A stretch of 64,000 nt of DNA from Candidatus Woesearchaeota archaeon (GCA_016935095.1 JAFGRO010000076.1:15030-79029); one strand, 5' to 3'; positions 2,059-47,914 are shown, counted from the first letter of the stretch. A program made the numbers and translations. Notes: generated by a model from the letters alone, not told the origin.

Positions 2059-2100
2059 TTTGATTTAATTTCCTTTTACTTTTAATTTTTCATAATTAAT

Positions 2101-2236
2101 GGAGAGCACACATTGCCCTTGCTGTAATTGAAGACGTCCCTCAATGGTTCCCTGCTCTTATCTAATTAGAAGGGGCGCTTGTGGAACGTCCTGTTTAATG
2201 TCAAGGAACAATCATCCAATCTCACCAAGCCTGAAT
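2101..2236 (+). repeat. Conserved ~135-nt GC-rich intergenic element, copy A of 3 (candidate structured ncRNA or MITE-like family)
   Basis: Shares blocks with copies at 38915-39050 and 43006-43143: TTGCCCT, GTCCCTCAATGG.TCCCT, GAAGGGGCGCTTG.GGAAC, ATCCAATCTC.CC.AAGCCT.AA. Lies about 175 nt upstream of the pilin gene on the same strand. Confidence 0.6.
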
Positions 2237-2409
2237 ATAAATTTTAATTAAATTATATTTTATTTTCACTAAGCCTGATTATTAATTCTATAAAAAAATT
2301 CTTAAAATAAATAAAAGTTGATAGAGAAAATTTTATATAGGTGAAGATATAGAGAAAAATTAATAAATCCGTTTATTATTAGAAAATTTTAAAAAGAGGC
2401 TGATTTACA

Positions 2410-11172: not shown

Positions 11173-11529
11173 TTAATCCTTAGAAATCATGTATAGTGCT
11201 TTTAATGCGACTATTCCTGCTCCTGGTGCAATAAATACCACTACATTTGTCATGAAAGGTTTTGCTGCAGAGCCAAGTATAGGAATCGGTTCTAAAATTG
11301 CAGTTAAGCTTGATGCAGACACTAAAAATGCTATTGTTGCAATCAGATAGGTCCTTACCTCTTCATCGCTTATGTTCATTAAGCCGACTATTAAGCCAAG
11401 GATTCCAAGAACCCATAACAGGCCTGTATTCGGCGGAATTAATAAGGCTGTTGCTATTGCAATAATCAAACCTAATATAAATGTCCACGGCCCGACTTTA
11501 GTCATTAGCCCTTTCTTTTTTCTAGCCAT
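11173..11529 (-). CDS. Small integral membrane protein (3-4 TM)
   Basis: Hydrophobic 118-aa ORF. Confidence 0.4.
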   Translation of the reverse strand: MARKKKGLMTKVGPWTFILGLIIAIATALLIPPNTGLLWVLGILGLIVGLMNISDEEVRTYLIATIAFLVSASSLTAILEPIPILGSAAKPFMTNVVVFIAPGAGIVALKALYMISKD

Positions 11530-33529: not shown

Positions 33530-35761
33530 TTATTTTTTATTATTAAAATCTTCTTTCAAAGGGCCATCTCTTAGTCTTTCAGTATATCTGCATCTTGGAA
33601 ATTCGGAGCATCCAAGAAATTGCCCGTAAACACTTTTTCTGACAACAAGAATTCCTTTTTTGCATTTAGGGCATTCTTTTTCAACTTTGCCGTTTTTTAT
33701 TTCCTCTGCTTCTTTTTTTACTTCTTTGTCGATAATTTTTTTTGTTTTGCACTTGGGATTAAAGCAGACAACCTGCTTTTTCTTGTTAATGATCTGGATT
33801 AAAGGAAAGCCGCATTTTTCACATTTTTTGTCTGTTGGTTTAATTTTGCCGTGTTCAGGAATAGAGAATATTGTTTTGCATTTCGGATATGCATCACATG
33901 CAATAAACCTCTGCTTTGTTTTTCTTGAATGTTTAACAACAAGTTTGCCTTTTTTACAATTCACGCATATGCCGATTTCAGTTGTCATTGCTTCCTTGTA
34001 CGCTTCTTTTAATTCATTACCAATTTTGGTTTCTTTTATCTTGAAATCATCTAAGATTGCTCTCAGCTCGGATTTGGCCTTGTTAATCACTGTTTCCGGC
34101 TTGATTTTCTCTTTTCTGATTTTTTCCATTTCTTCTTCAAAATAACGGGTAAGCTCTTCTTCAACAATTCTTGGAGAATGTTTTTTCAGGACTCTTATTG
34201 TATGTATTCCCAGTTCAGTTGCCTCTATTGATTTTTCCTGGACGTACTCCCTTTGATATAATGAATCAATGATCTGTGCACGTGTAGATTTAGTTCCGAG
34301 GTTGCGTTTTTCAAGTTCTTTAATTAAGGAAGCCTGTGAATATCTTTTAGGAGGTTCAGTCTCTTTGTCATGTTTGATGATATCCTTAACTTTTACTGTT
34401 TCTCCTGTATTTAATTCAGGAAATTCTTCCTCTTTTAATCTTACATATGGCTCATATAAAACATACCATCCTTTTTCTGTTGTATGAGTGCCTTTTGCAA
34501 TGAATTTCTCTGAATTTACATCTATTACAATGCTTATTGTCTCTCTTTTGGCCCAGTCTCCAAAAGTAGCAAAAAATCTTTTTACAATTAGATCATAAAT
34601 CTTTTTATTTTGAGGGTTAAACTTGAATGAATCAAAACCTGTTGGGTAAATTGCAGGGTGAGCAGGATCAGTCTTATTGCCCTCATTGGGCTTTAAATAA
34701 TTTTTTTTTGATAATATTTCCACTAATTTAAGATAATCTTTATTTTGTTTTCCCAGACTATTTAATATCTTTTTAAACCCTATCTTTGCAGGAAGTTTCT
34801 GGGAGCTTGTTCTCGGATAAGAGATTAACCCGTTTAAATAGAGCTCCTGTGCAATATCAAGTGTTCTTTTTGGAGTAAATCCAAAAAGCCTATGGGCTTC
34901 AATCTGCAATGTTGTCAAATCAAATGGAAATGGCGGAGGATGTTTAGTTTCTCTTTTTTCAATATCTTTTATAGTTCCGTCATGGCCTTTGACTTTTTTC
35001 AATACGTCTTTGCATTCTTTTTCATCCCAGAACTTATCTTTCTCATGCCATGCGTTTATATTGGATTTTTTTACTTTTCCAATTAATTCCAGCTGCCAGT
35101 ATTTTTTAGGGACAAATTTTCTGATTTCAAGTTCTTTTTCTACAATAATCTTTAATGCGGGTCCCTGCACTCTTCCTGATGACAGGGTCTTGTATATTTT
35201 TGATTTTCTTAATGCTAATGTAAGTGCCCTGCTTAAATTAATTCCGTATAACCAGTCTAATATATGCCTGGCTTCACCGGCATAAGCCTGTCCCCAGTCC
35301 AGTGATTTCTGTTTTTTGCTGTAAGATTCAATCAGATCAGGTTTTGTAAGGGTTGAGAATTTCATTCTAGAAGCGTCTTTTTGATTACATGCATATCTAA
35401 TTATATTCAATCCTATGGTTTCACCCTCAATGTCGAAATCTGTGGCAACTGTAAATGAACTAACCTCTTTACTGAGTTTTTTTATTACATTAAGATATTT
35501 CTTTGAGAAACTTGAGTTTTTATCTACTTCTGCAGTAGGTTTCCATTCAACATTGAAAGAAGGATATTTAAAAGATTTTTTTTTTTCGGCTATTGTGTAT
35601 AAATGACCAACTGCACAAGCTACAATAATATTTTTTTTATGATGTTTTAATTTATAGAATGGTACGCCACTTATATTTAATTTTCTTGGTTTATCATCTG
35701 CTAACGCATCAGCAACACGGTTACATGCACTTGGCTTTTCAGTGATTATTAATTCAGTCAT
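33530..35761 (-). CDS. topA: DNA topoisomerase I (type IA) with C-terminal zinc-ribbon repeats
   Basis: Toprim N-terminus (MTELIITEKPSA...), GYISYPRTSS-like active-site region (LISYPRTSSQKL), several C4 zinc ribbons at the C-terminus. Confidence 0.9.
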   Translation of the reverse strand: MTELIITEKPSACNRVADALADDKPRKLNISGVPFYKLKHHKKNIIVACAVGHLYTIAEKKKSFKYPSFNVEWKPTAEVDKNSSFSKKYLNVIKKLSKEVSSFTVATDFDIEGETIGLNIIRYACNQKDASRMKFSTLTKPDLIESYSKKQKSLDWGQAYAGEARHILDWLYGINLSRALTLALRKSKIYKTLSSGRVQGPALKIIVEKELEIRKFVPKKYWQLELIGKVKKSNINAWHEKDKFWDEKECKDVLKKVKGHDGTIKDIEKRETKHPPPFPFDLTTLQIEAHRLFGFTPKRTLDIAQELYLNGLISYPRTSSQKLPAKIGFKKILNSLGKQNKDYLKLVEILSKKNYLKPNEGNKTDPAHPAIYPTGFDSFKFNPQNKKIYDLIVKRFFATFGDWAKRETISIVIDVNSEKFIAKGTHTTEKGWYVLYEPYVRLKEEEFPELNTGETVKVKDIIKHDKETEPPKRYSQASLIKELEKRNLGTKSTRAQIIDSLYQREYVQEKSIEATELGIHTIRVLKKHSPRIVEEELTRYFEEEMEKIRKEKIKPETVINKAKSELRAILDDFKIKETKIGNELKEAYKEAMTTEIGICVNCKKGKLVVKHSRKTKQRFIACDAYPKCKTIFSIPEHGKIKPTDKKCEKCGFPLIQIINKKKQVVCFNPKCKTKKIIDKEVKKEAEEIKNGKVEKECPKCKKGILVVRKSVYGQFLGCSEFPRCRYTERLRDGPLKEDFNNKK

Positions 35762-36081: not shown

Positions 36082-37194
36082 ATGTATCCTATTAATTATA
36101 TTAAATTTGAAAACCTTTTACCAAAAAAATCAAGGTTAGGATACACTCTTTATATTAATTATTTACCTGATAAGTTATTTGTTAAATATAAGGCATTAGC
36201 AAGACAAGTAGAACATATCTTTCCTAAAGAATTGATACTTGATAATAACTTTTTTACAGCGCTTGGTCTGTCTACTGGAGATGGATTAAATAATCCTTCA
36301 ATTAGAAATACACACTACAACTTTGCTAATAGTAATTTTTATTTAGTTTATATTGTATATAATTGGCTTTTAAAATACTTTAATATTAATAAAAGGTCTT
36401 TTCAGTTTCAACTATTCCAAAAAAATAAAAATTTAGATTCTATAGTAAAGATTAGGAGTTTTTTTAATATTAATACTTCAAGAATAAAAGTCTATTATTC
36501 TAATAGGTATAAGGAAGATGTTTTAGTAATACAAATATCTAATCCTATTTTTCAATTATTATACTTAAAACTTTTTGATACATTAAAGCAAGAAATTCTT
36601 AAAAATGAAAATTATAGAAGATCTTTTCTTAAAGGACTTTTTGCAGCTGAAGGTCATGTTAAACACAGTATTTATGGTACTATAGAAAATCTTTCATTTG
36701 CTTTTAATCCTCATAATGAAATCGAATTGGCTCAATTTATTTTTGAGTGCTTTAATAGAGAGGGAATTGAATTTAAAATTAATGACAGTTTGATTTATAC
36801 TTGTGGTTATAATAATATGTTAAAAACATATTTACTAGGAATAATTCAATTACATATTAAAAAGAAAAATAAATTTTTGAGATTAATTAAAAATGCTAAC
36901 TATTTTTTGCATTTTAAAAAAAATAGTTTAGATCTTTTAAGAGACAAAAGTCAGTATGAACTAGCGAAAATATTGGGTTGTTCTCAATCAGGTATAAGTA
37001 AAATGTTGAAGAAGAATTATTTAAGTTATAAAAATATAAGAAAATTAGAAAACAAAGCATTAGTTAATCCAGAAAAACTTTTTAATAAAATTGATTTCAT
37101 TACTGTGTCAACTACCCATATTAGAGATAGCAAATGTATTGATTTTTTGAAGAAGGAGATTTTTTTAAATAGATTATCTCATAATAGTGAATAA
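36082..37194 (+). mobile_element. Free-standing double-motif LAGLIDADG homing endonuclease with C-terminal HTH
   Basis: Two LAGLIDADG-type motifs (LGLSTGDGLNN and LKGLFAAEGHV). C-terminal HTH (YELAKILGCSQSGISKMLKK). Very AT-rich with an A/T-ending codon dialect. GGAGGTGA SD upstream. Confidence 0.6.
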
Positions 37195-37728
37195 AAAAGG
37201 CCCTATATTCATGAACAGGATTATGTTTAACAGAACATTAGTAACTCCGAAACTCAGATTTTTTCCGATATCATAATTAAACACAAAATGATAAAATAAG
37301 AATACAAATGTGTTTTTTATTAATGTCAGGATTGTTCCGGAAACAAATAAACTGCTCACAGGAAAAAAAGGTGTAGCTATACATACAATAATGTTACCAA
37401 TTACCATGGGTATTAAGAAAGGAGAATAATAACCGTAAAATGCAGAGCTTAAGATTGTTCCGAATACAGCAATTACCATTCCGGCTTTGATTCCATATAA
37501 AAAAGTGCATAGGACAATTCCCAGGCTGAGAATCTCTATCTCAATCGGCAGCTGGAAGTTTTTTTTATAAGCAGATAACAAGACATTACCTACAATAAAA
37601 GCCGTAACAAAAATAGCAGCCTTAATCTGGTAATAGTATAGGATAAGCAGGGGCAACGTCAATAATCCAAGCAAAATATATAAGATATATCTCTTCTTGA
37701 ATCTGAATCTGGTTTTTTTATTTTTCAT
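37174..37728 (-). CDS. Hypothetical integral membrane protein (5-6 TM)
   Basis: Hydrophobic 184-aa ORF. Confidence 0.4.
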   Translation of the reverse strand: MKNKKTRFRFKKRYILYILLGLLTLPLLILYYYQIKAAIFVTAFIVGNVLLSAYKKNFQLPIEIEILSLGIVLCTFLYGIKAGMVIAVFGTILSSAFYGYYSPFLIPMVIGNIIVCIATPFFPVSSLFVSGTILTLIKNTFVFLFYHFVFNYDIGKNLSFGVTNVLLNIILFMNIGPFLFTIMR

Positions 37729-37805: not shown

Positions 37806-38798
37806 ATGGACCACATAATAAATAGAATAATTGAAAAGATTCATTCTGATGGAAAGGATTTTCCCTTATTAGATGGGAATTACAAAGCAGCTGAAATATC
37901 CCTCGGGAATTTTCATAAGATTCCCGCTATTAAATCAGCTAAGAAACTGATTTTTGTAGACGGTGGCAGCAGTGAACTATTTAAATCACCGAGCATTAGC
38001 TTGTTTTTCAACAGAATCTATTACACAATCTATCAGAACAATAAGAGAATAAAAAACAAAAAATACGAGTTTTATACTTTAATTTATACTTTAAATAAAA
38101 ATAATAAATTGTTTTTTAAAACAGAGCTTTTCGGGAATGAATTCGATTTTGCAGAGTTAGAATTTGATTCACAGGACAAGACCCTTTGTTTTGGAAAAAA
38201 CAGGGCAAATATCTCTGTATTGGGGGATGTAATAAGGAGATTTGCAGAATTAAAGATTGGCTCTTCAATAAAAGAAGAGGATTCAGTTTTAGTTATGGAC
38301 GGCACACTTGAATTAAAATACTCTTTTGAAGATGAATTTTTAAAAGAATTATTCAGCTCAGCTAAAATAATATGCGGATTATCAAAGACCTGCTCTTTAT
38401 TGACACAGGAAGGAGATTCACTGATTCCAAAACTTGTAAGAATTTCACCTTATGCTTCCTGGTATTATAATCCGGTTCTTACGAATAATTCGGAATTACT
38501 GCCAAATATCTACTTTGTTAAATTCAATAAAAATTCCAGTTATGTTTTCAGGTTTGATGTTCATAAAAATAAATTCATTGATGAAATACTCTCATCATTA
38601 AAAGAGAACAGCAAGGATCCTGTTTTTTTAGGATATCCCTATGGTTTGATTGAAGCAGATAAAATGGCGAGAATCTCTAATAAAGAAACTGAAAGATTAA
38701 AGATGCAGTTAAGAATAAAGCTTGGGAATAATCTGAAAAACACAGAGGATTATGCCAATACATTGAATGCACACGATGTTTTAGATAATATTGGGTAA
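37806..38798 (+). CDS. nurA: NurA-like 5'-3' nuclease (putative)
   Basis: NurA-domain-like motif order: LIFVDGGSS ... VLVMDGTLE ... GYPYGLIEADKMARI. Confidence 0.45.
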   Translation: MDHIINRIIEKIHSDGKDFPLLDGNYKAAEISLGNFHKIPAIKSAKKLIFVDGGSSELFKSPSISLFFNRIYYTIYQNNKRIKNKKYEFYTLIYTLNKNNKLFFKTELFGNEFDFAELEFDSQDKTLCFGKNRANISVLGDVIRRFAELKIGSSIKEEDSVLVMDGTLELKYSFEDEFLKELFSSAKIICGLSKTCSLLTQEGDSLIPKLVRISPYASWYYNPVLTNNSELLPNIYFVKFNKNSSYVFRFDVHKNKFIDEILSSLKENSKDPVFLGYPYGLIEADKMARISNKETERLKMQLRIKLGNNLKNTEDYANTLNAHDVLDNIG

Positions 38799-38914
38799 AA
38801 TATAAGAGTTAATTGAATTAAGGGTATTTATTTTTTATTAATTTTCTTTTAATTTTCTTTTACTTTTAATTTATCATAAATGATTTTTTTTATTTTTAAT
38901 AGTTTAGTAATTAA

Positions 38915-39050
38915 GGGAGGGTGCATGTTGCCCTGGCTGTTTAACATGATGTCCCTCAATAGCTCCCTGCGCATATTTAATCAGAAGGGGCGCTTGGGGA
39001 ACATCTGCTTTGAGATTCAGGAGAAGTTATCCAATCTCCCTAAGCCTAAA
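38915..39050 (+). repeat. Conserved ~135-nt GC-rich intergenic element, copy B of 3
   Basis: Same conserved blocks as copy A. Lies about 200 nt upstream of the PfkB kinase gene on the same strand. Confidence 0.6.
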
Positions 39051-39255
39051 TAAAAAAGTATAAATTAGAATTATTTTTGTTTGATGATTTTTTATTCTGT
39101 CCTTTTTCCAAGCCTGAAAATAAAAAATAAATACTTAATCCCTCTTTTTTTTCAAATCTAAAACTAAATTTGGAATTGAATAATATTAATATCTTTTTTC
39201 AGCAAAATTTATAAAACCAGCATATATATTTCATTCTGTAAAAAGAGGTCTTTCA

Positions 39256-40236
39256 ATGTATGATGTAATTACTGTTGGCTCAGCTACTGTGGATGTATTT
39301 GCAGATTCAGCTTCTGAATTGATTAAAATCAAAACCCTGAAAGAAACAGAGGAACTGATAGCATACCCTTCCGGCTCGAAGATTCTTATAAAGAATATCC
39401 AGTTTCTTACAGGGGGCGGAGGCACAAACACGGCAGTTGCTCTTGCAAGACTTGGACACAAAGTTGCTTTTCTGGGCAATCTTGGGAAAGATGCAAATGC
39501 AAAAATAGTCCTTGAAGAGCTGGAAAAAAATAAAGTGGATTTTATAGGAGTAAAAGACAAAGGTATGACCGGATTTTCAGTTGTATTAAAAAGCCTTGAG
39601 CATGACAGGTCTATTCTTGCGTATAAAGGCGTTAATAATGATTTGACTGTTGATGAAGTAAATTTTAACAAGCTGAAAACAAAATGGTTCTATTTTTCTT
39701 CGATGATGGATGAGTCCTTTAAAACAATGGAAAAATTAGCAGAATTTGCGGAAAAAAACCATATAATGATTGCATTTAACCCAAGCAATTACCTGGCTGA
39801 GAAAGGCACTATCTTTCTGAGGAATGTTTTGACTAAAACAACATACCTGATTTTGAATACACAGGAAGCAGAACTTTTAGTAGGAAAAGGTGAATTCATT
39901 GATCTAATTAAAAAACTAATGGACTTTGGTCCAAAGCTTGTGGTTATAACTGACGGCAAAAGAGGCGCACATACTTTTAATAAAAATTATTATTACCACA
40001 TAATTCCCTCTGATGCAAAAGTCTTTGAGACAACTGGAGCAGGAGATTCTTTTGCCGCATCTTTTTTATCAGGGATGATTAAGAAAAATGATGTTGAGTT
40101 TGCATTGAGGCTTGCCCAGATTAATGCGGAGTCAGTAATCCAGCACACAGGGGCTAAAAATAAGTTGTTGACATATAAAGAAGCTCTTGGAATGTTAAAA
40201 AAAACCAAACTCAAAATTAAAAAAAGAAAAATTTAA
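39256..40236 (+). CDS. PfkB-family carbohydrate/nucleoside kinase (ribokinase-like)
   Basis: N-terminal GG motif (TGGGGTNTAVALARLG) and C-terminal DTTGAGDSF motif. Confidence 0.75.
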   Translation: MYDVITVGSATVDVFADSASELIKIKTLKETEELIAYPSGSKILIKNIQFLTGGGGTNTAVALARLGHKVAFLGNLGKDANAKIVLEELEKNKVDFIGVKDKGMTGFSVVLKSLEHDRSILAYKGVNNDLTVDEVNFNKLKTKWFYFSSMMDESFKTMEKLAEFAEKNHIMIAFNPSNYLAEKGTIFLRNVLTKTTYLILNTQEAELLVGKGEFIDLIKKLMDFGPKLVVITDGKRGAHTFNKNYYYHIIPSDAKVFETTGAGDSFAASFLSGMIKKNDVEFALRLAQINAESVIQHTGAKNKLLTYKEALGMLKKTKLKIKKRKI

Positions 40237-40322
40237 ACTTTCCGGTTTAATTTTTTTCAACCAAAGCTTTATAAAGAAAAACCCTGCGTTGTTAATTTAC
40301 TAATTGGTAAATGTGATAAATA

Positions 40323-40472
40323 ATGCAGGGATATAGCAGACTTGGAGTTTATAACAAAAACCTAATAGCCAAAAAAACAGCAGGAAAAGAAAAAAAAGCT
40401 TCTAAAGATTGGGTTAATATTGCTCTTTTTGTATTGCTGATTGTAGTGTTGGTCTTATTTATTATTACTTAA
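40323..40472 (+). CDS. Possible 49-aa tail-anchored membrane micro-protein
   Basis: Hand translation: MQGYSRLGVYNKNLIAKKTAGKEKKASKDWVNIALFVLLIVVLVLFIIT. Weak support. Confidence 0.25.
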   Translation: MQGYSRLGVYNKNLIAKKTAGKEKKASKDWVNIALFVLLIVVLVLFIIT

Positions 40473-40492
40473 ATGTTTTTAATAAACAATAT

Positions 40493-42475
40493 CTAATAAA
40501 CAATATCATATCTTAAGATATAGCATTCTCTCATATCTTTGATTGTGCAGAATTTAGATATGTTTTCTTTTATCCTGTCAATTGAGATTTTCCTGTTTAA
40601 TCTATTATTGTAATTAATTTCCACAAACTGTATCTTTTCAAAACAGGCATTATTTGATAAATGTGAAAAAATATATTCATCTGAGAGGGATATTTTATTG
40701 CCTGTTTTAACAAGGAGTTTTTTTTTTATTAGTCCTTCAATGATATTGCCTGCATTAAAGCTTAATTTTTTAATCAAGTCTTCCTCTTCAAAATTTTTGA
40801 ATTTAAACGCGGTATGCAGTACCCTGATCTCGTCTGAAGATAAGTTTTCCAGAGAAGGTAATTTTTTTGTTTTGAAATTATCTAAGTCTATAATAACATC
40901 ACCATTAATCATCTCTATCAATAAATTAAATTCATTTCTTTTTTCTGAGCATAAAATTAAATATCCCGGTATGAGTGTTGTCTCAATCCCTTTGATTTCT
41001 CTGTCAGACATAATCTTAAGGTCTTTTTTAGTTATTTTAGGCATAATCACAGGAAGAAGCTCTTTTTCATTGAACTCCTGGACCTTTTCAAAGAATTTTT
41101 CTTCATCTCGCTGCTCAAGAATATTTACAGCATGACCTCCATGCTTGGTTTTTCTTGGCCTGATGTTCACAAACAGGGGCATATCAACCACACCTGTAAT
41201 CAATGCAGTTCCTATTGGCAGGTTTTTAATTTCATTCTCAGATTCATTAGTTATGCCTTCAACAGAGTTTGCAATGCTTTTTAAGTCACTAGGGTTTGTG
41301 ACTTTGAGGATTATCTGTGTTGTGCACTGGGATAAGACAGATTTATCGACACGAGCAGGCCTCTGGGATATTATGCATAAGCCAAGGCCGAATTTTCTCC
41401 CTTCAGAAGCAACAGTCCTTAGGATCTTTGAGCATCTTGTCTCTCCGAAACTTCTTTCAGGGCAGTAGTTATGTGCCTCTTCAACAACACAGAAAAAAGG
41501 AGGGATTTTTTCTTTTTTCCTTAACTCAAATAAGTCTTTCATTAACTTGTAGACAATAATCTCCTGAACATCAGGTGAGATTCCTTTGAGATTTATAATC
41601 GTGCATTTTCCTAATTGGATAATCTCATTATATGGCAGGTAACTCTCTGTGAAAATATCAAGGTTGTTTAAATATTCTAAATTATTTATTATTGTCCATT
41701 TTGTGTTATTCTCTTCTTTTTCAAGCTCAAATAATACATTAGTGAAATTAATTACATCAAGGTGCTTTACTGCACTATATAACAATCCAAGCTGCGTATT
41801 AGTCAGTTTTCCTGGGATAAGATGTGTAATTTCAACAGGCGACAGATTATTGTTTAGTTTCAATGGTCTTAATTCAGGATTTGATTTTGAATCTCCGTAT
41901 TCATGAATATTTGTAAAGCCAAGCGGCTTTAAATCATATTTTGAAAGGATCTCTTTTTCCTCGATATTAGGGCTTTTCAAAGAAGAGTATTCTCCATGAG
42001 GATCTATTATAAGAAGAGGCACTTTCTTATCAATAATCTCCTCAATCAAAACACCCGAGGTATATGATTTTCCTGCTCCTGATTTTGCAAGGATTGCAAT
42101 ATGCTTTGTGAGAAGTTTTTTTAAATCCAGGATTACATCAATGTTCTTGCCGTCTAATCTGCCTATAAACGCCCCTTTTTCACAATCCTCCAGTTTTATG
42201 ACTGATTTTATAAATTCATCCTCTGCTTTTATGACTTCAGCATTCTGCTCAAACGGGATCCTTATCGGCTTTATTCTTCCCTTATCGTCTTTATAGCCGA
42301 TAACAATGCAGTTGGCAATATCTTTATCTGTGCGCTCAATTTCAATTACCTGGCATAAAACCCATTCATATACTTTATGCATTACCTGCACAAACTCAAA
42401 TTTCTTTGTTTCTTTTTCTACAAGGAATTTAAATTCCGTTGTTGTAATCCTGCCGAAGATTTTACCTAAAATCAT
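40493..42475 (-). CDS. herA: HerA-family (FtsK/HerA superfamily) hexameric ATPase with N-terminal HAS barrel and a ~170-aa C-terminal extension
   Basis: Walker A AILAKSGAGKSYTSG and Walker B FFCVVEEAHNY. The N-terminal beta-rich region precedes the ATPase core. Confidence 0.7.
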   Translation of the reverse strand: MILGKIFGRITTTEFKFLVEKETKKFEFVQVMHKVYEWVLCQVIEIERTDKDIANCIVIGYKDDKGRIKPIRIPFEQNAEVIKAEDEFIKSVIKLEDCEKGAFIGRLDGKNIDVILDLKKLLTKHIAILAKSGAGKSYTSGVLIEEIIDKKVPLLIIDPHGEYSSLKSPNIEEKEILSKYDLKPLGFTNIHEYGDSKSNPELRPLKLNNNLSPVEITHLIPGKLTNTQLGLLYSAVKHLDVINFTNVLFELEKEENNTKWTIINNLEYLNNLDIFTESYLPYNEIIQLGKCTIINLKGISPDVQEIIVYKLMKDLFELRKKEKIPPFFCVVEEAHNYCPERSFGETRCSKILRTVASEGRKFGLGLCIISQRPARVDKSVLSQCTTQIILKVTNPSDLKSIANSVEGITNESENEIKNLPIGTALITGVVDMPLFVNIRPRKTKHGGHAVNILEQRDEEKFFEKVQEFNEKELLPVIMPKITKKDLKIMSDREIKGIETTLIPGYLILCSEKRNEFNLLIEMINGDVIIDLDNFKTKKLPSLENLSSDEIRVLHTAFKFKNFEEEDLIKKLSFNAGNIIEGLIKKKLLVKTGNKISLSDEYIFSHLSNNACFEKIQFVEINYNNRLNRKISIDRIKENISKFCTIKDMRECYILRYDIVY

Positions 42476-42591
42476 GCATTTCCAGAAAGAAAAGGGATTT
42501 ATAAGGTTTTGGAGTCAAATCGAGAAGTTAAGTTATATGGGGTAATTGAATTTATTTTTTTATTTTTATAAATTATTTGATAATGAAAATA

Positions 42592-42954
42592 TTAAGTATT
42601 AGATGACTTAGTTAGTTTTTCAACAACTGCTTTAAGAGTTTGATATGCTCTGAAAAATAATGTTCTACCACTAATAAAGTAGTCAGCAGCACCTTGTGCA
42701 TAAGGATTTCCAATTCTAAGAAACTGTTCAAAGGCAGTTCTTGACTTACTGAAATATTCAAGAATTTGAGAATATTGTTCATTGAAGGGCTCTTTTGATA
42801 AAGTCTCAATTGCAATTTGAAGATATCTATAAACTTGGTGTTTTATTTGTCCAAGATCAATATTAATCTGTGAACCTTTTATTGCATTTTCTAGAATTCT
42901 ATTAGCATTAAAACCTATTCTAAATAATTCTATAAGATCTTCTTCATCTCCCAT
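42592..42954 (-). CDS. Hypothetical helical protein (atypical A/T-ending codon dialect)
   Basis: 120-aa ORF upstream of herA on the same strand, 117-nt gap. No family recognised. Confidence 0.35.
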   Translation of the reverse strand: MGDEEDLIELFRIGFNANRILENAIKGSQINIDLGQIKHQVYRYLQIAIETLSKEPFNEQYSQILEYFSKSRTAFEQFLRIGNPYAQGAADYFISGRTLFFRAYQTLKAVVEKLTKSSNT

Positions 42955-43005
42955 TCTATTAGATTAATAATTATACATTATATTAATATTTTACTTTTAG
43001 TAATT

Positions 43006-43143
43006 GAGGAACAGCACTTCTTGCCCTTCATGTGTCAGATGATGTTCCTCAATGGCTCCTTTCACTCATTATAATGCAAGGGGCGCTTGGGGAACTTCTG
43101 GTTAAATATTTAAAGCAAATATTACATCTCCCCAAGCCTAAAA
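43006..43143 (+). repeat. Conserved ~135-nt GC-rich intergenic element, copy C of 3
   Basis: Same conserved blocks. Lies about 100 nt upstream of the presenilin-like gene on the same strand. Confidence 0.6.
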
Positions 43144-43245
43144 CTAAATTTTAAAAAAATTTGAATTAAGAAATGCCTGTCATATTGATTTTGATTAGAG
43201 ACTGAAAACAAAAATAATTTAAATCTTTGCAATATAGGGATTCTT

Positions 43246-44169
43246 ATGAAGCATGATTTTAAAGTGACTCTCTTTCTTTTAATTTTATTTATTTCAGCCC
43301 AGGTTATTGGTTTGTTTATACTGAACCAAAGTATTATTGTAGAGGAGGCAATTGACGAAATAACAGGAGAAACAAGTGTTGTTTTGGATTATAAGGAAGT
43401 TATTACAGGAAGACCTGAAACCCAGGGAGCATCATCTTTTTTATATGTTTTTTTTGCAATTCTGATCGGGACAATCCTGCTTCTGATACTTATAAAATAC
43501 AAAATGCATAAAGTCTGGAAAACATGGTTCTTTGTTGCAGTCGGAATAACATTATCAATCGTGTTTGATGTTTTTTTTGAAGAAATTATTTCCTTGATCT
43601 TGGGATTTGCATTGGCTTATTTGAAAATATACAGGCCGAATATATTTACGCATAATCTGACAGAGGTTTTTATGTATGCAGGCATAGCCCTGATGATTGT
43701 TCCTATCTTCAATATATTCTGGATGATTATACTGCTGATAACAATCTCAATATATGATATTATTGCTGTTTTTAAAAGCAAGCACATGATTAAGCTTGCA
43801 AAATTCCAGTCCTCATCCAAGATGTTTGCAGGGCTTGTAATCCCCTATAAAAAATTACCACAATCCTCTTCGGAAATAAAAATCCATATACCTAAAGGAA
43901 TAAAGAAACAGGGCGTTAAATCCGCTATTTTAGGAGGAGGGGATATGGCATTTCCTTTGCTGTTTGCCGGTGTAGTGATGGAAAATCTGATTGTAGTTAA
44001 TCATATGACAAAACAATTAGCTTTTTTTAAGACATTAATCATACCTGTATTTGCCTGTATGGCTTTGGCAGTCTTATTATATTTAAGCAAAAAAAACAAG
44101 TTTTATCCTGCAATGCCGTTTTTAACTGCCGGCTGCCTGCTTGGATACGGGATTATTTTTTTTATTTAA
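43246..44169 (+). CDS. Presenilin/signal-peptide-peptidase-like intramembrane aspartyl protease (A22 family homolog)
   Basis: 9 TM. YD motif (SIYDIIAVF) and GxGD motif (LGGGDMAFP) in consecutive TM helices. C-terminal PAL-like motif (PAMPFL). Confidence 0.6.
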   Translation: MKHDFKVTLFLLILFISAQVIGLFILNQSIIVEEAIDEITGETSVVLDYKEVITGRPETQGASSFLYVFFAILIGTILLLILIKYKMHKVWKTWFFVAVGITLSIVFDVFFEEIISLILGFALAYLKIYRPNIFTHNLTEVFMYAGIALMIVPIFNIFWMIILLITISIYDIIAVFKSKHMIKLAKFQSSSKMFAGLVIPYKKLPQSSSEIKIHIPKGIKKQGVKSAILGGGDMAFPLLFAGVVMENLIVVNHMTKQLAFFKTLIIPVFACMALAVLLYLSKKNKFYPAMPFLTAGCLLGYGIIFFI

Positions 44170-46300: not shown

Positions 46301-47914
46301 ATGTCTCCAATGACAGCACTTTCCGCTACATATAATGTAGATCTAACTAAATATAATGCTTTTCTATTAGAAAGATTAAAAAGTGAATTCCGGGCACGTT
46401 TATTACCAGAATCAACTGGAAGAAGACGAGTTTACCGAGATGGAGACCAACCTTGTGATTTATCAGAAGCACTTTATAATGATAGGCAAATTTGTTTACA
46501 GGGTGATCCTGGTTCTGGAAAAACTATGGCATTATTAAATGAAGGAATTAGAATTGTACAAGGAGAAGAAAGAAGTGAATATGGATTAACAACCCTTCTT
46601 TTAATGGAATTACATAGTTTAAGTACTGGATTGGATTTTTCAGCTCCTTATGAATTCTTTACAGCTTATTTACAAGGAATTGCACAAAAACTAGGTTTAT
46701 CAGATGACTTCCCTCAACAAGTGTATCAAGATCCTGGTACTGTTATTACACTTGATGGTCTAGATGAAATTGCTGATCCACAAATAAGAGAAAAAGTAAT
46801 ACAAAGCATCAATGAAGCCAAAGCAGCAGCAATTGCATCAAATGGAAAGTTGCCACAAATAATTGAAGTAGCAACTCGACCTTGGGTAACTGTTGAAGGT
46901 TTTATACCTTATGCCTTAGAACCATTAACAGAAGTACAAATGGCACAAATTTTTGTAGGTGAGTTAAATGCATATTTTGATAGTATTTATGGTGAGGATG
47001 GATTGAAAGGAAAAGCTAGAGAAACTCAAATCAGGCAAAGAACTGATGATTTTCTCATGTATCTTTCACAAAGATCCTGGAGTCATATATTAAGAAATCC
47101 ATCATATTTGAGATATGCAGTACATCATCAAAATCCATTACCAGGAACATTTGGAGAATTTCTTGAAGCAGCAACTGATGGTTTTTTAATAGGTATTCAA
47201 GCAAGAAGAGATTTAGTGGAAGAATTAAATGTAGTTGTAGATAGACATCATCAACGACTTGGACAACATATATCTGATATGATTCCAGTATTAAGAGAAA
47301 TGGCATGGGTAGCACATACAGAAAAAAGTCGAGCTTTACCTTTAGATAAAATATTATCTATAGAAAGGTGGGATCCAAATGGTAGCTATTCAAATTCACT
47401 TTTATCTCAATTACCTACTGAAAGAAAAGAACAAATGCTTGATAAAATTGCGGAGAAATCACCTTTTTTAGCTCGCTATGAAGCAGAAGGAATTACTACT
47501 AAACATTATTTTTTTACACATCTAGGATTACAAGAATTTTTAGCTGGACAAGCACTTGCAGATAGAATAAATGAAGGGAAAATATCTCTTGATGAAGTAG
47601 ACAATATGCTTGATAATTCTTGGTGGAGACAACCTGTCCTTTATTCTTTTTCTAGTTTAAACTGGAATCAGGCAAATGCATTAGCTGAAAAAGTAATACA
47701 GAGACAGGATAGATCTTTAATGGCTGATGCTTATCATATGGTACAGGGAAAAGTACTTCTACATTACTTAGAAGCTTTTGAAGCAGCAAATAGTGAATTA
47801 CAGACAGAGACTACAATTGATGAGCAAGAGCTAAGGGCAGAATTAAAAAAGGCTGAGGGATCATCTTCTCAGAAACAAAAGAGAGGAAGATTAGGTTTTT
47901 TGGAAAAAAAATGA
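46301..47914 (+). CDS. NACHT-type STAND NTPase (short, 537 aa; no obvious effector or repeat sensor domain)
   Basis: Walker A GDPGSGKTMALL and NACHT-style Walker B VITLDGLDEIAD. Distinct A/T-ending codon dialect (tta, caa, gga, aga, gaa). Confidence 0.6.
   Translation: MSPMTALSATYNVDLTKYNAFLLERLKSEFRARLLPESTGRRRVYRDGDQPCDLSEALYNDRQICLQGDPGSGKTMALLNEGIRIVQGEERSEYGLTTLLLMELHSLSTGLDFSAPYEFFTAYLQGIAQKLGLSDDFPQQVYQDPGTVITLDGLDEIADPQIREKVIQSINEAKAAAIASNGKLPQIIEVATRPWVTVEGFIPYALEPLTEVQMAQIFVGELNAYFDSIYGEDGLKGKARETQIRQRTDDFLMYLSQRSWSHILRNPSYLRYAVHHQNPLPGTFGEFLEAATDGFLIGIQARRDLVEELNVVVDRHHQRLGQHISDMIPVLREMAWVAHTEKSRALPLDKILSIERWDPNGSYSNSLLSQLPTERKEQMLDKIAEKSPFLARYEAEGITTKHYFFTHLGLQEFLAGQALADRINEGKISLDEVDNMLDNSWWRQPVLYSFSSLNWNQANALAEKVIQRQDRSLMADAYHMVQGKVLLHYLEAFEAANSELQTETTIDEQELRAELKKAEGSSSQKQKRGRLGFLEKK

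What the first reader, a model, noticed from the sequence alone, without database searches (positions are those of the whole stretch)
37806..42475. Uncoupled HerA ATPase and NurA-like nuclease separated by a kinase gene and a repeat-element copy
HerA (Walker A/B, HAS-barrel-like N-terminus, unusual ~170-aa C-terminal extension) and a protein with the NurA motif order (VDGGSS ... MDGTLE ... YPYGLIEAD) lie 1.7 kb apart on opposite strands. They are separated by a PfkB kinase and copy B of the conserved element. In most archaea herA-nurA are co-transcribed with mre11-rad50, and no mre11 or rad50 is visible here. Either the end-resection machinery is reduced and rearranged, or this HerA works with a different partner. 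The 120-aa foreign-dialect gene 117 nt upstream on the same strand is a candidate, and HerA-centred defence modules are known in prokaryotes.
Basis: partly seen in the sequence, partly recalled or inferred. Interest (0 to 1): 0.6.

Follow-up and report, generated by a model that had tools for sequence, protein, structure and literature searches.

The report
Woesearchaeal HerA and NurA, unlinked genes
A DPANN (Woesearchaeota) archaeon carries a real NurA nuclease gene and a HerA motor gene with an extra C-terminal winged-helix domain, lying tail-to-tail rather than in one operon; this layout is normal for the lineage, not a sign of a defence module or a new partner.

Summary
The ORF at 37806-38798 (+) is a divergent but genuine NurA. 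The ORF at 40493-42475 (-) is an intact HerA-family ATPase with about 195 residues beyond the end of Sulfolobus HerA. A PfkB kinase, a 49-aa membrane peptide and one copy of a 150-nt repeat lie between them. No mre11 or rad50 is in the window.

The contig is from a Candidatus Woesearchaeota MAG. In the eight closest relatives with enough sequence, the same convergent block recurs: Topo, NurA, then PfkB in six of them, an asparagine-synthetase-like gene, HerA. In more distant DPANN genomes herA and nurA are more than 8-10 kb apart. The four-gene operon is documented for thermophilic archaea, not for most archaea.

The 120-aa upstream gene has almost no relatives and the lowest GC3 in the window. 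It is absent from all 25 other DPANN HerA loci fetched. No neighbour matches a defence-system model.

The extension is conserved across the phylum. It models confidently as a beta-rich domain with an inserted winged helix. The HerA core is the slowest-evolving protein in the neighbourhood, and some relatives carry inteins.

Most likely this is a housekeeping HerA-NurA DNA-end processor encoded by separately transcribed genes. Whether Mre11-Rad50 exists elsewhere in the genome could not be tested.

The parts
33530..35761 (-). Type IA topoisomerase. It anchors the conserved syntenic block and is usually divergent from nurA.
   Evidence: Pfam Topoisom_bac scores 416 bits, with Toprim and Zn ribbons. 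It lies next to or near NurA in L003-L009, L087, L089, L090 and L092.
36082..37194 (+). 370-aa ORF with weak LAGLIDADG/HTH similarity. It is a genome-specific insertion between the topoisomerase and the membrane-protein gene.
   Evidence: Pfam hits are sub-threshold: HTH_3 21.2 bits and LAGLIDADG_3 18.1 bits. It was found only in the window among the 85 loci held at that point. GC is 22.6% and GC3 0.151.
37174..37728 (-). Conserved 184-aa multi-pass membrane protein with no family assignment, divergent from nurA.
   Evidence: No Pfam or NCBIfam hit. An ortholog sits in the same position in L005: tblastn 56% identity over 151 aa, E 8e-55.
37806..38798 (+). NurA-family nuclease, 330 aa. Predicted catalytic residues are D52, E148 and D165, with K194 and Y277/Y279.
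   Evidence: PF09376 scores 37.3 bits against GA 21. The AF2 model has pLDDT 91.3. The Foldseek top PDB hit is S. solfataricus NurA 2ygk (E 2.4e-10, TM 0.55), followed by EndoV and Argonaute PIWI. The residues are invariant in 33 homologs. They match the SsoNurA set D58/E116/D133/K202/Y298 (PMC3326311).
38903..39055 (+). Copy B of a ~150-nt repeat that is richer in G+C and self-complementary. It widens the nurA-pfkB spacer to 457 bp.
   Evidence: Three + strand copies lie at 2088-2240, 38903-39055 and 42996-43148. GC is 40-45% against ~32% for the window. The consensus fold has 44 pairs, 3 with compensatory changes. The spacer is 34-37 bp in L001 and L005. No Rfam match.
39256..40236 (+). PfkB-family sugar or nucleoside kinase, ribokinase-like. 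It is the conserved downstream neighbour of nurA.
   Evidence: PF00294 scores 154 bits. The best NCBIfam hit is ribokinase at 135.7 bits, below its cut-off of 299.65. NurA-PfkB adjacency is seen in L001, L005-L009, L089, L090, L092 and the P0053 contig.
40323..40472 (+). Conserved 49-aa tail-anchored membrane peptide. Its 3' end converges on the 3' end of herA.
   Evidence: tblastn with the 49-aa ORFs of L001 and L004 hits 40323-40424 (E 1.8e-4 and 4e-3). It holds the same position in L001, L003, L004, L009 and L089. No Pfam family.
41078..42475 (-). HerA core, aa 1-466: HAS-like N-terminus, then a RecA-like ATPase with Walker A (GAGKS) and Walker B (VVEEAH).
   Evidence: PF01935 scores 113 bits. 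The family profile hits Sso HerA 4d2i at E 2.8e-44 over profile positions 78-466. The HAS-barrel hit is sub-threshold. The core is 77-83% identical in relatives whose topoisomerase is 50-64% identical.
40496..41077 (-). HerA C-terminal extension, aa 467-660: a beta-rich domain with an inserted winged helix-turn-helix. It is specific to DPANN HerA.
42497..42512 (-). BRE/TATA-like motif CCAAAACC-TTATAAAT, centred about 26 nt upstream of the herA ATG. It implies an independent, probably leaderless, herA transcript.
   Evidence: Read directly from the sequence. Promoter function is inferred from the known archaeal promoter geometry and was not tested.
42592..42954 (-). Orphan 120-aa ORF with foreign base composition. 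It is not a conserved HerA partner.
   Evidence: No Pfam, NCBIfam or PADLOC hit. Only one relative (34% identity, on a 546-bp contig) exists among 1.84e9 representatives. GC3 of 0.125 is the lowest of 58 genes. It is absent from the other 25 DPANN HerA loci that were fetched.
42996..43148 (+). Copy C of the repeat, between the 120-aa ORF and the presenilin-like gene.
43246..44169 (+). Presenilin / signal-peptide-peptidase homolog (context gene, divergent from herA).
   Evidence: PF06550 scores 72 bits. NCBIfam PSH scores 84.6 bits, below its cut-off of 125. An SPP gene also lies 2-3 genes upstream of the related HerA in 23 Thermoplasmatota loci.

Best explanation
The region is the Woesearchaeota version of the archaeal HerA-NurA machinery, encoded by two independently transcribed genes inside a housekeeping, vertically inherited neighbourhood.

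Proposed mechanism (inferred by homology, not shown here):
- HerA forms a hexameric ATP-driven dsDNA translocase.
- A NurA dimer caps its HAS-domain face.
- DNA pumped through the ring is cut at NurA's RNase-H-like D-E-D active sites. This resects or degrades DNA ends.

This lineage's HerA carries a conserved ~195-residue C-terminal add-on, a beta-rich domain with an embedded winged helix. It most plausibly gives the ring an extra DNA-binding or partner-binding surface.

The features special to this genome are local accidents:
- a 150-nt repeat inserted between nurA and pfkB;
- a LAGLIDADG-like ORF;
- an orphan 120-aa ORF;
- loss of the asparagine-synthetase-like gene that follows herA in relatives.

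These do not form a functional module.
For: Shown:
- NurA identity, from the Pfam score, the fold and the invariant catalytic set.
- HerA identity. The ATPase motifs are intact. The nearest solved and NCBIfam relatives are the repair-type HerAs rather than the antiphage ones.
- The convergent block is conserved in 8 of 8 close relatives.
- The extension is conserved across the phylum and models confidently with a winged helix.
- The HerA core is 77-83% identical where NurA is 44-52% and the topoisomerase 50-64%.
- Inteins interrupt HerA in some relatives.
- HerA has its own promoter-like motif.

Inferred:
- Complex formation and mechanism. These rest on the Sulfolobus and Thermococcus HerA-NurA structures and biochemistry (PMC3326311; PMC12977600).
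- The hydrophobic residues flanking the conserved Tyr in VFLGYPYGLI. They resemble the SsoNurA HerA-binding patch I295/F300.
Against: - No direct evidence here that this HerA and this NurA interact.
- In more distant DPANN genomes the two genes are not within 8-10 kb.
- In Thermoplasmatota the closest HerA relatives have no NurA within the up to 10 kb fetched on each side. Linkage therefore gives no support beyond shared ancestry of close relatives.
- HerA falls far below the NCBIfam equivalog cut-offs (149.8 against 970).
- The HAS barrel, the known NurA docking site, is detected only below threshold.
- The role of the extension is a guess based on fold class.
Confidence: 0.6

Rival explanations
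1. This HerA clade works mainly without NurA, as an FtsK-like chromosomal DNA pump for segregation or division-site clearance. In this view the C-terminal winged helix plays the DNA-reading role of the FtsK gamma domain, and NurA is at most an occasional partner.
For: - The HerA core is the most conserved protein of the neighbourhood, and inteins occur in relatives.
- herA and nurA are unlinked in deeper DPANN lineages and in Thermoplasmatota.
- Both clades append different putative DNA-binding tails to the motor: a winged helix here, and a Cys4-motif domain in Thermoplasmatota.
- The layout of motor plus C-terminal winged helix parallels FtsK. FtsK gamma (2j5p) appears among the winged-helix matches.
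- A division role for archaeal HerA is raised in PMC12977600.
Against: - The FtsK-gamma match is not significant (E 0.29) and is one of hundreds of generic winged-helix hits.
- NurA is retained with all catalytic residues.
- In the close relatives it stays within 1-4 kb of HerA.
- HerA being more conserved than NurA is also true of canonical pairs (PMC3326311).
Confidence: 0.2
2. The genome has a minimal end-resection system, HerA-NurA without Mre11-Rad50, as proposed for Deinococcus. This is the reader's 'reduced machinery' alternative and is compatible with the best explanation.
For: - No Mre11 or Rad50 domain among the 29 window ORFs scanned.
- None in the gene tables of the 13 DPANN loci that came with Pfam annotation.
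- A crude motif scan of all loci held found no Mre11/Rad50 candidate in any DPANN locus.
- DPANN genomes are small. This rests on my own knowledge.
Against: - Only 64 kb of one genome was seen.
- The motif scan is crude.
- In mesophiles these genes need not be linked, so absence nearby says little.
Confidence: 0.3
3. NurA, with or without HerA, serves nucleotide scavenging. DNA would be degraded to nucleotides, and the co-transcribed PfkB-family kinase would feed the products into salvage or the pentose-bisphosphate route. This would suit a DPANN organism with poor nucleotide biosynthesis.
For: - The nurA-pfkB pair is co-directional, and usually adjacent, in close relatives and in 4 of 7 deeper contexts. 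That is deeper than the herA linkage.
- PfkB scores weakly against ribokinase, ribose-1-phosphate kinase and nucleoside kinase models.
- The T. kodakarensis complex degrades both DNA strands (PMC12977600).
Against: - PfkB substrate is unassigned; every NCBIfam hit is below its cut-off.
- The adjacency sits inside a larger syntenic block (PLD-Lon-Topo-NurA-PfkB), so it may be inherited gene order only.
- A membrane-protein gene separates the two genes in several genomes.
- In this window a 457-bp spacer with a separate TATA-like motif precedes pfkB.
Confidence: 0.07
4. A HerA-centred anti-virus defence module in which the 120-aa protein is the effector or sensor.
For: - HerA matches PADLOC HerA models, best 155 bits.
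- The 120-aa ORF lies 116 nt upstream on the same strand and has foreign composition.
Against: - Any HerA matches the generic PADLOC HerA models.
- NCBIfam scores the repair HerAs above the antiphage HerAs (149.8/136.6 against 97.9/82.8).
- No neighbour hits PADLOC.
- The 120-aa ORF is an orphan and is absent from all 25 other DPANN HerA loci fetched.
- HerA is vertically conserved at 70-75% identity in a syntenic housekeeping block.
- HerA has its own promoter-like motif.
Confidence: 0.03

Closest known systems
Archaeal HerA-NurA end-resection complex (Saccharolobus solfataricus, Pyrococcus furiosus, Thermococcus kodakarensis)
   Same: - NurA has the RNase-H-like fold, and Sso NurA is the best structural match.
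- The D/E/D catalytic set with K and Y is present, with the same 17-residue E-to-D spacing.
- HerA aligns to Sso HerA across the ATPase core, with Walker A and B motifs and the conserved SEGRKFG...SQRP segment.
   Different: - The genes converge and are transcribed separately, not in an operon, and no mre11-rad50 is nearby.
- HerA carries ~195 extra C-terminal residues (a beta-rich domain plus a winged helix).
- NurA is 12% identical to Sso NurA, and only its last 56 residues match the Pfam model.
- Both proteins fall far below the NCBIfam equivalog cut-offs.
Bacterial NurA-HerA of Deinococcus-Thermus
   Same: It is described as working without Mre11-Rad50, as a minimal resection machine (PMC12977600).
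   Different: The bacterial genes form an operon, and DraNurA has an N-terminal extension (PMC12977600). Here the add-on is at the HerA C-terminus and the genes are unlinked. Absence of Mre11-Rad50 is not established for this genome.
FtsK (FtsK-HerA superfamily) with its C-terminal gamma winged-helix domain
   Same: The domain logic is the same: a ring translocase motor followed by a C-terminal winged helix. 2j5p appears among the fold matches.
   Different: The match is a generic winged-helix resemblance (E 0.29). Here the winged helix is embedded in a larger beta-rich domain. No sequence similarity to FtsK gamma was found, and no KOPS-like motif was tested.
HerA-centred bacterial defence systems (SIR2-HerA, DUF4297-HerA and the other PADLOC HerA models)
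   Same: They share the HerA ATPase core, which matches at 62-155 bits.
   Different: There is no adjacent effector and no PADLOC hit for any neighbour. The gene is in a vertically inherited housekeeping context, and its scores against repair HerA models are higher.
HerA of Thermoplasmatota (closest non-DPANN relatives)
   Same: They are 42-45% identical over aa 1-460 and about 600-640 aa long. They are also unlinked to nurA, and a presenilin-like gene often lies a few genes upstream.
   Different: The C-terminal tail differs: a Pro-rich linker followed by ~90 aa with a C-x7-C-x2-C-x5-C motif. The neighbours also differ: a TP_methylase-family gene upstream and a transglutaminase-like gene downstream.

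Membership tests
NurA nuclease (PF09376) | Profile match above the curated threshold | tested here: met
   37.3 bits against GA 21, but only aa 235-290 align. Most homologs carry a precomputed PF09376 hit. The NCBIfam Sulfolobales equivalog is not met: 18.2 against 400.
NurA nuclease (PF09376) | RNase-H-like fold closest to solved NurA | tested here: met
   The AF2 model has pLDDT 91.3. The Foldseek top hit is 2ygk Sso NurA (E 2.4e-10, TM 0.55), followed by EndoV and Ago PIWI, as reported for NurA.
NurA nuclease (PF09376) | Catalytic Asp-Glu-Asp plus conserved Lys and Tyr (Sso D58, E116, D133, K202, Y298) | tested here: met
   D52, E148, D165, K194 and Y277/Y279 are invariant in 33 homologs. 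The E-to-D spacing is 17 in both proteins. Residue equivalence was inferred from motif order and spacing, not from a superposition.
NurA nuclease (PF09376) | Toroidal homodimer that docks on the HerA HAS face through a hydrophobic patch | not testable with these tools
   No multimer prediction was available. Hydrophobic residues flank the conserved Tyr (VFLGYPYGLI), which is suggestive only.
HerA helicase/translocase (PF01935; FtsK-HerA superfamily) | Central DUF87 ATPase domain with Walker A, Walker B and the conserved downstream ATPase segment (SEGRKFG...SQRP) | tested here: met
   PF01935 scores 113 bits. GAGKS, VVEEAH and SEGRKFGLGL..SQRP are invariant in 43 homologs. The protein aligns to 4d2i at E 2.8e-44.
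HerA helicase/translocase (PF01935; FtsK-HerA superfamily) | N-terminal HAS barrel | tested here: inconclusive
   PF09378 scores 18.9 bits, below GA 25.2, E 0.0017, aa 4-50. The weak N-terminal alignment to Sso HerA is not significant. No structure was predicted for this part.
HerA helicase/translocase (PF01935; FtsK-HerA superfamily) | Equivalog of the characterised repair HerA (NCBIfam NF040819 / NF040937) | tested here: not met
   149.8 bits against cut-off 970, and 136.6 against 800. It is a distinct subfamily.
Thermophile-type herA-nurA-mre11-rad50 gene cluster | The four genes adjacent and co-directional | tested here: not met
   herA and nurA converge 1.7 kb apart. No Mre11 or Rad50 domain was found among the 29 window ORFs scanned. 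The layout is the same in relatives.
HerA-centred defence systems (PADLOC) | HerA adjacent to a recognised effector (SIR2, DUF4297 and others) in a variable, patchily distributed locus | tested here: not met
   Only HerA itself hits PADLOC. The locus is syntenic and vertically conserved. The 120-aa neighbour is an orphan.
FtsK gamma-like DNA-reading domain | C-terminal winged helix homologous to FtsK gamma that recognises a polar DNA motif | tested here: inconclusive

The most novel reading that the evidence does not exclude
The ~660-aa HerA of Woesearchaeota and related DPANN archaea is a distinct, near-essential chromosome-handling motor. Its conserved C-terminal beta-rich plus winged-helix module reads DNA or recruits partners, as FtsK gamma does. 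The motor would act in chromosome segregation or resolution, largely independently of NurA. Its Thermoplasmatota sister clade would have solved the same problem with a different, Cys4-containing tail.
Probability: 0.15. Interest if true: 0.7.

Novelty: new variant of a known kind. Interest (0 to 1): 0.3.

Why it matters
Archaea lack FtsK, and the cellular role of HerA-NurA is still debated. A 2026 structural study of the Thermococcus complex questions the end-resection model and mentions foreign-DNA destruction or cell division as alternatives (PMC12977600).

This phylum offers a natural contrast to the thermophile operon:
- HerA is very strongly conserved and is occasionally invaded by inteins.
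- It carries an extra winged-helix module.
- It is genetically uncoupled from NurA and from any visible Mre11-Rad50.

That makes one question testable by co-occurrence profiling and biochemistry: does HerA have a NurA-independent function?

As a single locus, though, the finding is mostly ordinary. It is two known families in the arrangement typical of their lineage.

Tried and rejected
1. The 120-aa ORF as HerA partner was rejected. It is an orphan, it is absent from relatives, and it matches no family.
2. The defence-module reading was rejected.
3. I asked whether the ~117-aa ORF that follows nurA in distant relatives corresponds to the 120-aa ORF or to the repeat-bearing spacer. It does not. 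It is a 4-TM membrane protein whose window homolog lies at 11173-11529.
4. A sequence-profile search of the NurA family against PDB sequences found no NurA. Only the fold search recovered it.
5. I asked whether the asparagine-synthetase-like gene that follows herA in 17 of the 25 other DPANN HerA loci fetched is in the window. It is not (tblastn). It is an AsnB synthetase domain without the glutaminase domain, so I treat it as a metabolic neighbour rather than a HerA partner.
6. I asked whether the DPANN extension is shared with the Thermoplasmatota HerAs. It is not; their tails differ.
7. The repeat has no Rfam family. It is absent from 1.33 Mb of related loci. The 120 metagenome contigs sharing its 16-mer are chance matches, and none holds the element.
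8. A literature search for Mre11/Rad50 in Woesearchaeota returned nothing.
9. The afdb50 fold library was unavailable.
10. A motif scan for Mre11/Rad50 in all fetched loci found one Mre11-like ORF, in a Thermoplasmatota locus only.

Full report
**What is there**

The window is AT-rich, about 32% G+C. Its NurA-like and HerA proteins are identical to entries from an 88.9-kb contig of a Candidatus Woesearchaeota MAG. The region holds these features:

| Coordinates | Strand | Feature |
|---|---|---|
| 33530-35761 | - | type IA topoisomerase |
| 36082-37194 | + | 370-aa ORF with weak LAGLIDADG/HTH similarity |
| 37174-37728 | - | 184-aa membrane protein |
| 37806-38798 | + | NurA-like ORF |
| 38799-39255 | . 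| 457-bp spacer |
| 39256-40236 | + | PfkB kinase |
| 40323-40472 | + | 49-aa tail-anchored peptide |
| 40493-42475 | - | HerA |
| 42592-42954 | - | 120-aa ORF |
| 43246-44169 | + | presenilin-like protease |

The only correction is that the HerA extension is about 195 residues rather than ~170.

**NurA**

- Pfam NurA is passed (37.3 bits against 21), but only over the last 56 residues.
- A profile of 33 homologs found no NurA in PDB by sequence.
- A structure predicted from that alignment is confident, with pLDDT 91.3.
- Its best PDB match is S. solfataricus NurA 2ygk (E 2.4e-10, TM 0.55). Endonuclease V and Argonaute PIWI domains follow. These are the relatives reported for NurA (PMC3326311).
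- The family-invariant residues are D52, E148, D165, K194 and Y277/Y279. They reproduce the SsoNurA set D58, E116, D133, K202 and Y298, including the 17-residue Glu-to-Asp spacing.

I therefore accept it as a divergent NurA.

**HerA**

- PF01935 scores 113 bits.
- The Walker A, Walker B and downstream conserved ATPase motifs are invariant in 43 homologs.
- The nearest solved relative is Sulfolobus HerA.
- NCBIfam ranks the two repair-HerA models above the antiphage and CedD models. All are far below the equivalog cut-offs, so this is a separate subfamily.
- The HAS barrel is seen only below threshold.
- Residues 467-660 have no counterpart in Sso HerA.
- Modelled with 42 homologs, this tail is well ordered, with pLDDT 91.3.
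- Foldseek finds nothing at E<=1e-3 for the whole domain. The beta-rich part has no close solved relative.

**Is the arrangement unusual?**

It is not unusual for this lineage.

- Close relatives. Contexts of homologs with 70-75% identical HerA all show HerA, then an asparagine-synthetase-like gene, facing NurA on the opposite strand, followed by the topoisomerase. PfkB lies between NurA and the asparagine-synthetase-like gene in six of these relatives (L001, L005-L009). The 49-aa peptide ORF was found in four (L001, L003, L004, L009). This holds in eight of eight loci with enough sequence.
- More distant DPANN genomes (HerA 47-55% identical). HerA keeps the asparagine-synthetase-like neighbour. 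No NurA was found within 10 kb, or within the sequence available on shorter contigs.
- Seven NurA contexts from deeper lineages. None shows a HerA, Mre11 or Rad50 within 8-10 kb. They show a recurrent PLD-Lon-Topo-(NadABC)-NurA-(small membrane protein)-PfkB block.
- Closest non-DPANN relatives. These are Thermoplasmatota proteins, 42-45% identical over residues 1-460. They also have no NurA within the up to 10 kb fetched on each side. They carry a different C-terminal tail, a Pro-rich linker plus a Cys4 motif.

The literature ties the four-gene operon to thermophilic archaea and notes that Haloferax lacks HerA and NurA (PMC7776575).

**What is specific to this genome**

Relative to its closest relatives, the window differs in four ways:

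- It has lost the asparagine-synthetase-like gene.
- It has gained the low-GC3 LAGLIDADG-like ORF.
- It has a 150-nt repeat in the nurA-pfkB spacer, where relatives have about 35 bp.
- Upstream of herA it has an orphan 120-aa ORF followed by another copy of the repeat.

The 120-aa ORF has the lowest GC3 of 58 genes and one distant relative in 1.84 billion proteins. It has no family or defence hit. HerA has its own BRE/TATA-like motif about 26 nt before its ATG. I conclude that the ORF is a recently acquired passenger, not a HerA partner.

**Mechanism**

By homology, HerA should form a hexameric dsDNA translocase capped by a NurA dimer that cuts the strands it is fed (PMC3326311, PMC12977600). 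This is inferred, not shown.

Several observations leave room for a NurA-independent, FtsK-like role:

- The HerA core is 77-83% identical where the topoisomerase is 50-64% and NurA 44-52%.
- Inteins sit at two different sites in relatives.
- An extra winged helix is appended to the motor.
- The linkage to nurA is lost at depth.

I rate that role at about 0.15-0.2. The FtsK-gamma resemblance itself is not significant.

**Limits**

- Only 64 kb of one MAG was available. Absence of Mre11-Rad50, or of a second HerA, in the genome cannot be claimed.
- No multimer prediction could be run.
- The afdb50 library was unavailable.

**Verdict**

These are known families in a lineage-typical, non-operonic arrangement, with an uncharacterised, phylum-wide HerA extension as the only feature of wider interest.

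Noticed in passing
window 2088-2240, 38903-39055, 42996-43148 (all + strand): A ~150-nt repeat family, about 81% mean column identity, 40-45% G+C in a 32% genome. It is strongly self-complementary: the consensus fold has 44 pairs, 3 of them with compensatory changes. It is always intergenic. A conserved AT-rich TATA-like stretch lies ~25 nt upstream, and T-runs follow two copies. It matches no Rfam family. It is absent from 1.33 Mb of related loci and from the 120 metagenome contigs that share its 16-mer. It could be a genome-specific small RNA gene family or a MITE-like element. Two copies sit at points where this locus differs from its relatives.
   Followed up: partly
window 36082-37194 (+): A 370-aa ORF with sub-threshold LAGLIDADG_3 and HTH_3 hits, 22.6% G+C and GC3 0.151. 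Its 3' end overlaps the conserved membrane-protein gene by 21 nt. It is found only in this genome among the fetched loci. It looks like a free-standing homing-endonuclease-like insertion.
   Followed up: partly
L001 7410-8315; L005 12362-13264; also L003-L011, L013-L015, L018, L021, L022, L025: A ~300-aa protein consisting of the asparagine synthetase B synthetase (PP-loop, SGGxDS) domain without the glutaminase domain. It lies immediately downstream of herA, with 0-45 bp spacing or an overlap in most loci. It occurs in 17 of the 25 other DPANN HerA loci, deeper than the herA-nurA linkage. It is missing from this window.
   Followed up: partly
P0146 (1100 aa); L026 2339-6406: Some members of this HerA clade are interrupted by inteins at two different sites. 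In P0146 the intein lies after about residue 344, near Walker B. In L026 it lies after about residue 143, near Walker A, and carries a LAGLIDADG domain.
   Followed up: yes
L027-L085 (Thermoplasmatota HerA loci), e.g. L047 9896-11830: The sister HerA clade ends in a Pro-rich linker plus a ~90-aa domain with a C-x7-C-x2-C-x5-C motif, reminiscent of an Fe-S cluster loop. In 50 of 51 loci it sits between a TP_methylase-family gene (possibly diphthine synthase) and a transglutaminase-like membrane protein. A presenilin-like gene lies 2-3 genes upstream in 23 loci, as in this window.
   Followed up: partly
window 46301-47914 (+): A 537-aa ORF with no Pfam family and GC3 0.132, the second lowest in the window. 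It is another compositionally foreign gene.
   Followed up: no
window 40323-40472 (+); L001 8298-8447; L004 12905-13054; L089 10067-10213: A conserved ~49-aa tail-anchored peptide with a basic N-terminus and one C-terminal TM helix. It is kept just downstream of pfkB, or of the asparagine-synthetase-like gene, across relatives. It has no Pfam family.
   Followed up: partly
window 11173-11529 (-); L086 11206-11559; L090 9109-9459; L091 9215-9571; L092 9309-9665: A ~117-aa four-TM protein lies directly downstream of nurA in several distant DPANN genomes. In this genome its homolog is 26 kb away.
   Followed up: partly
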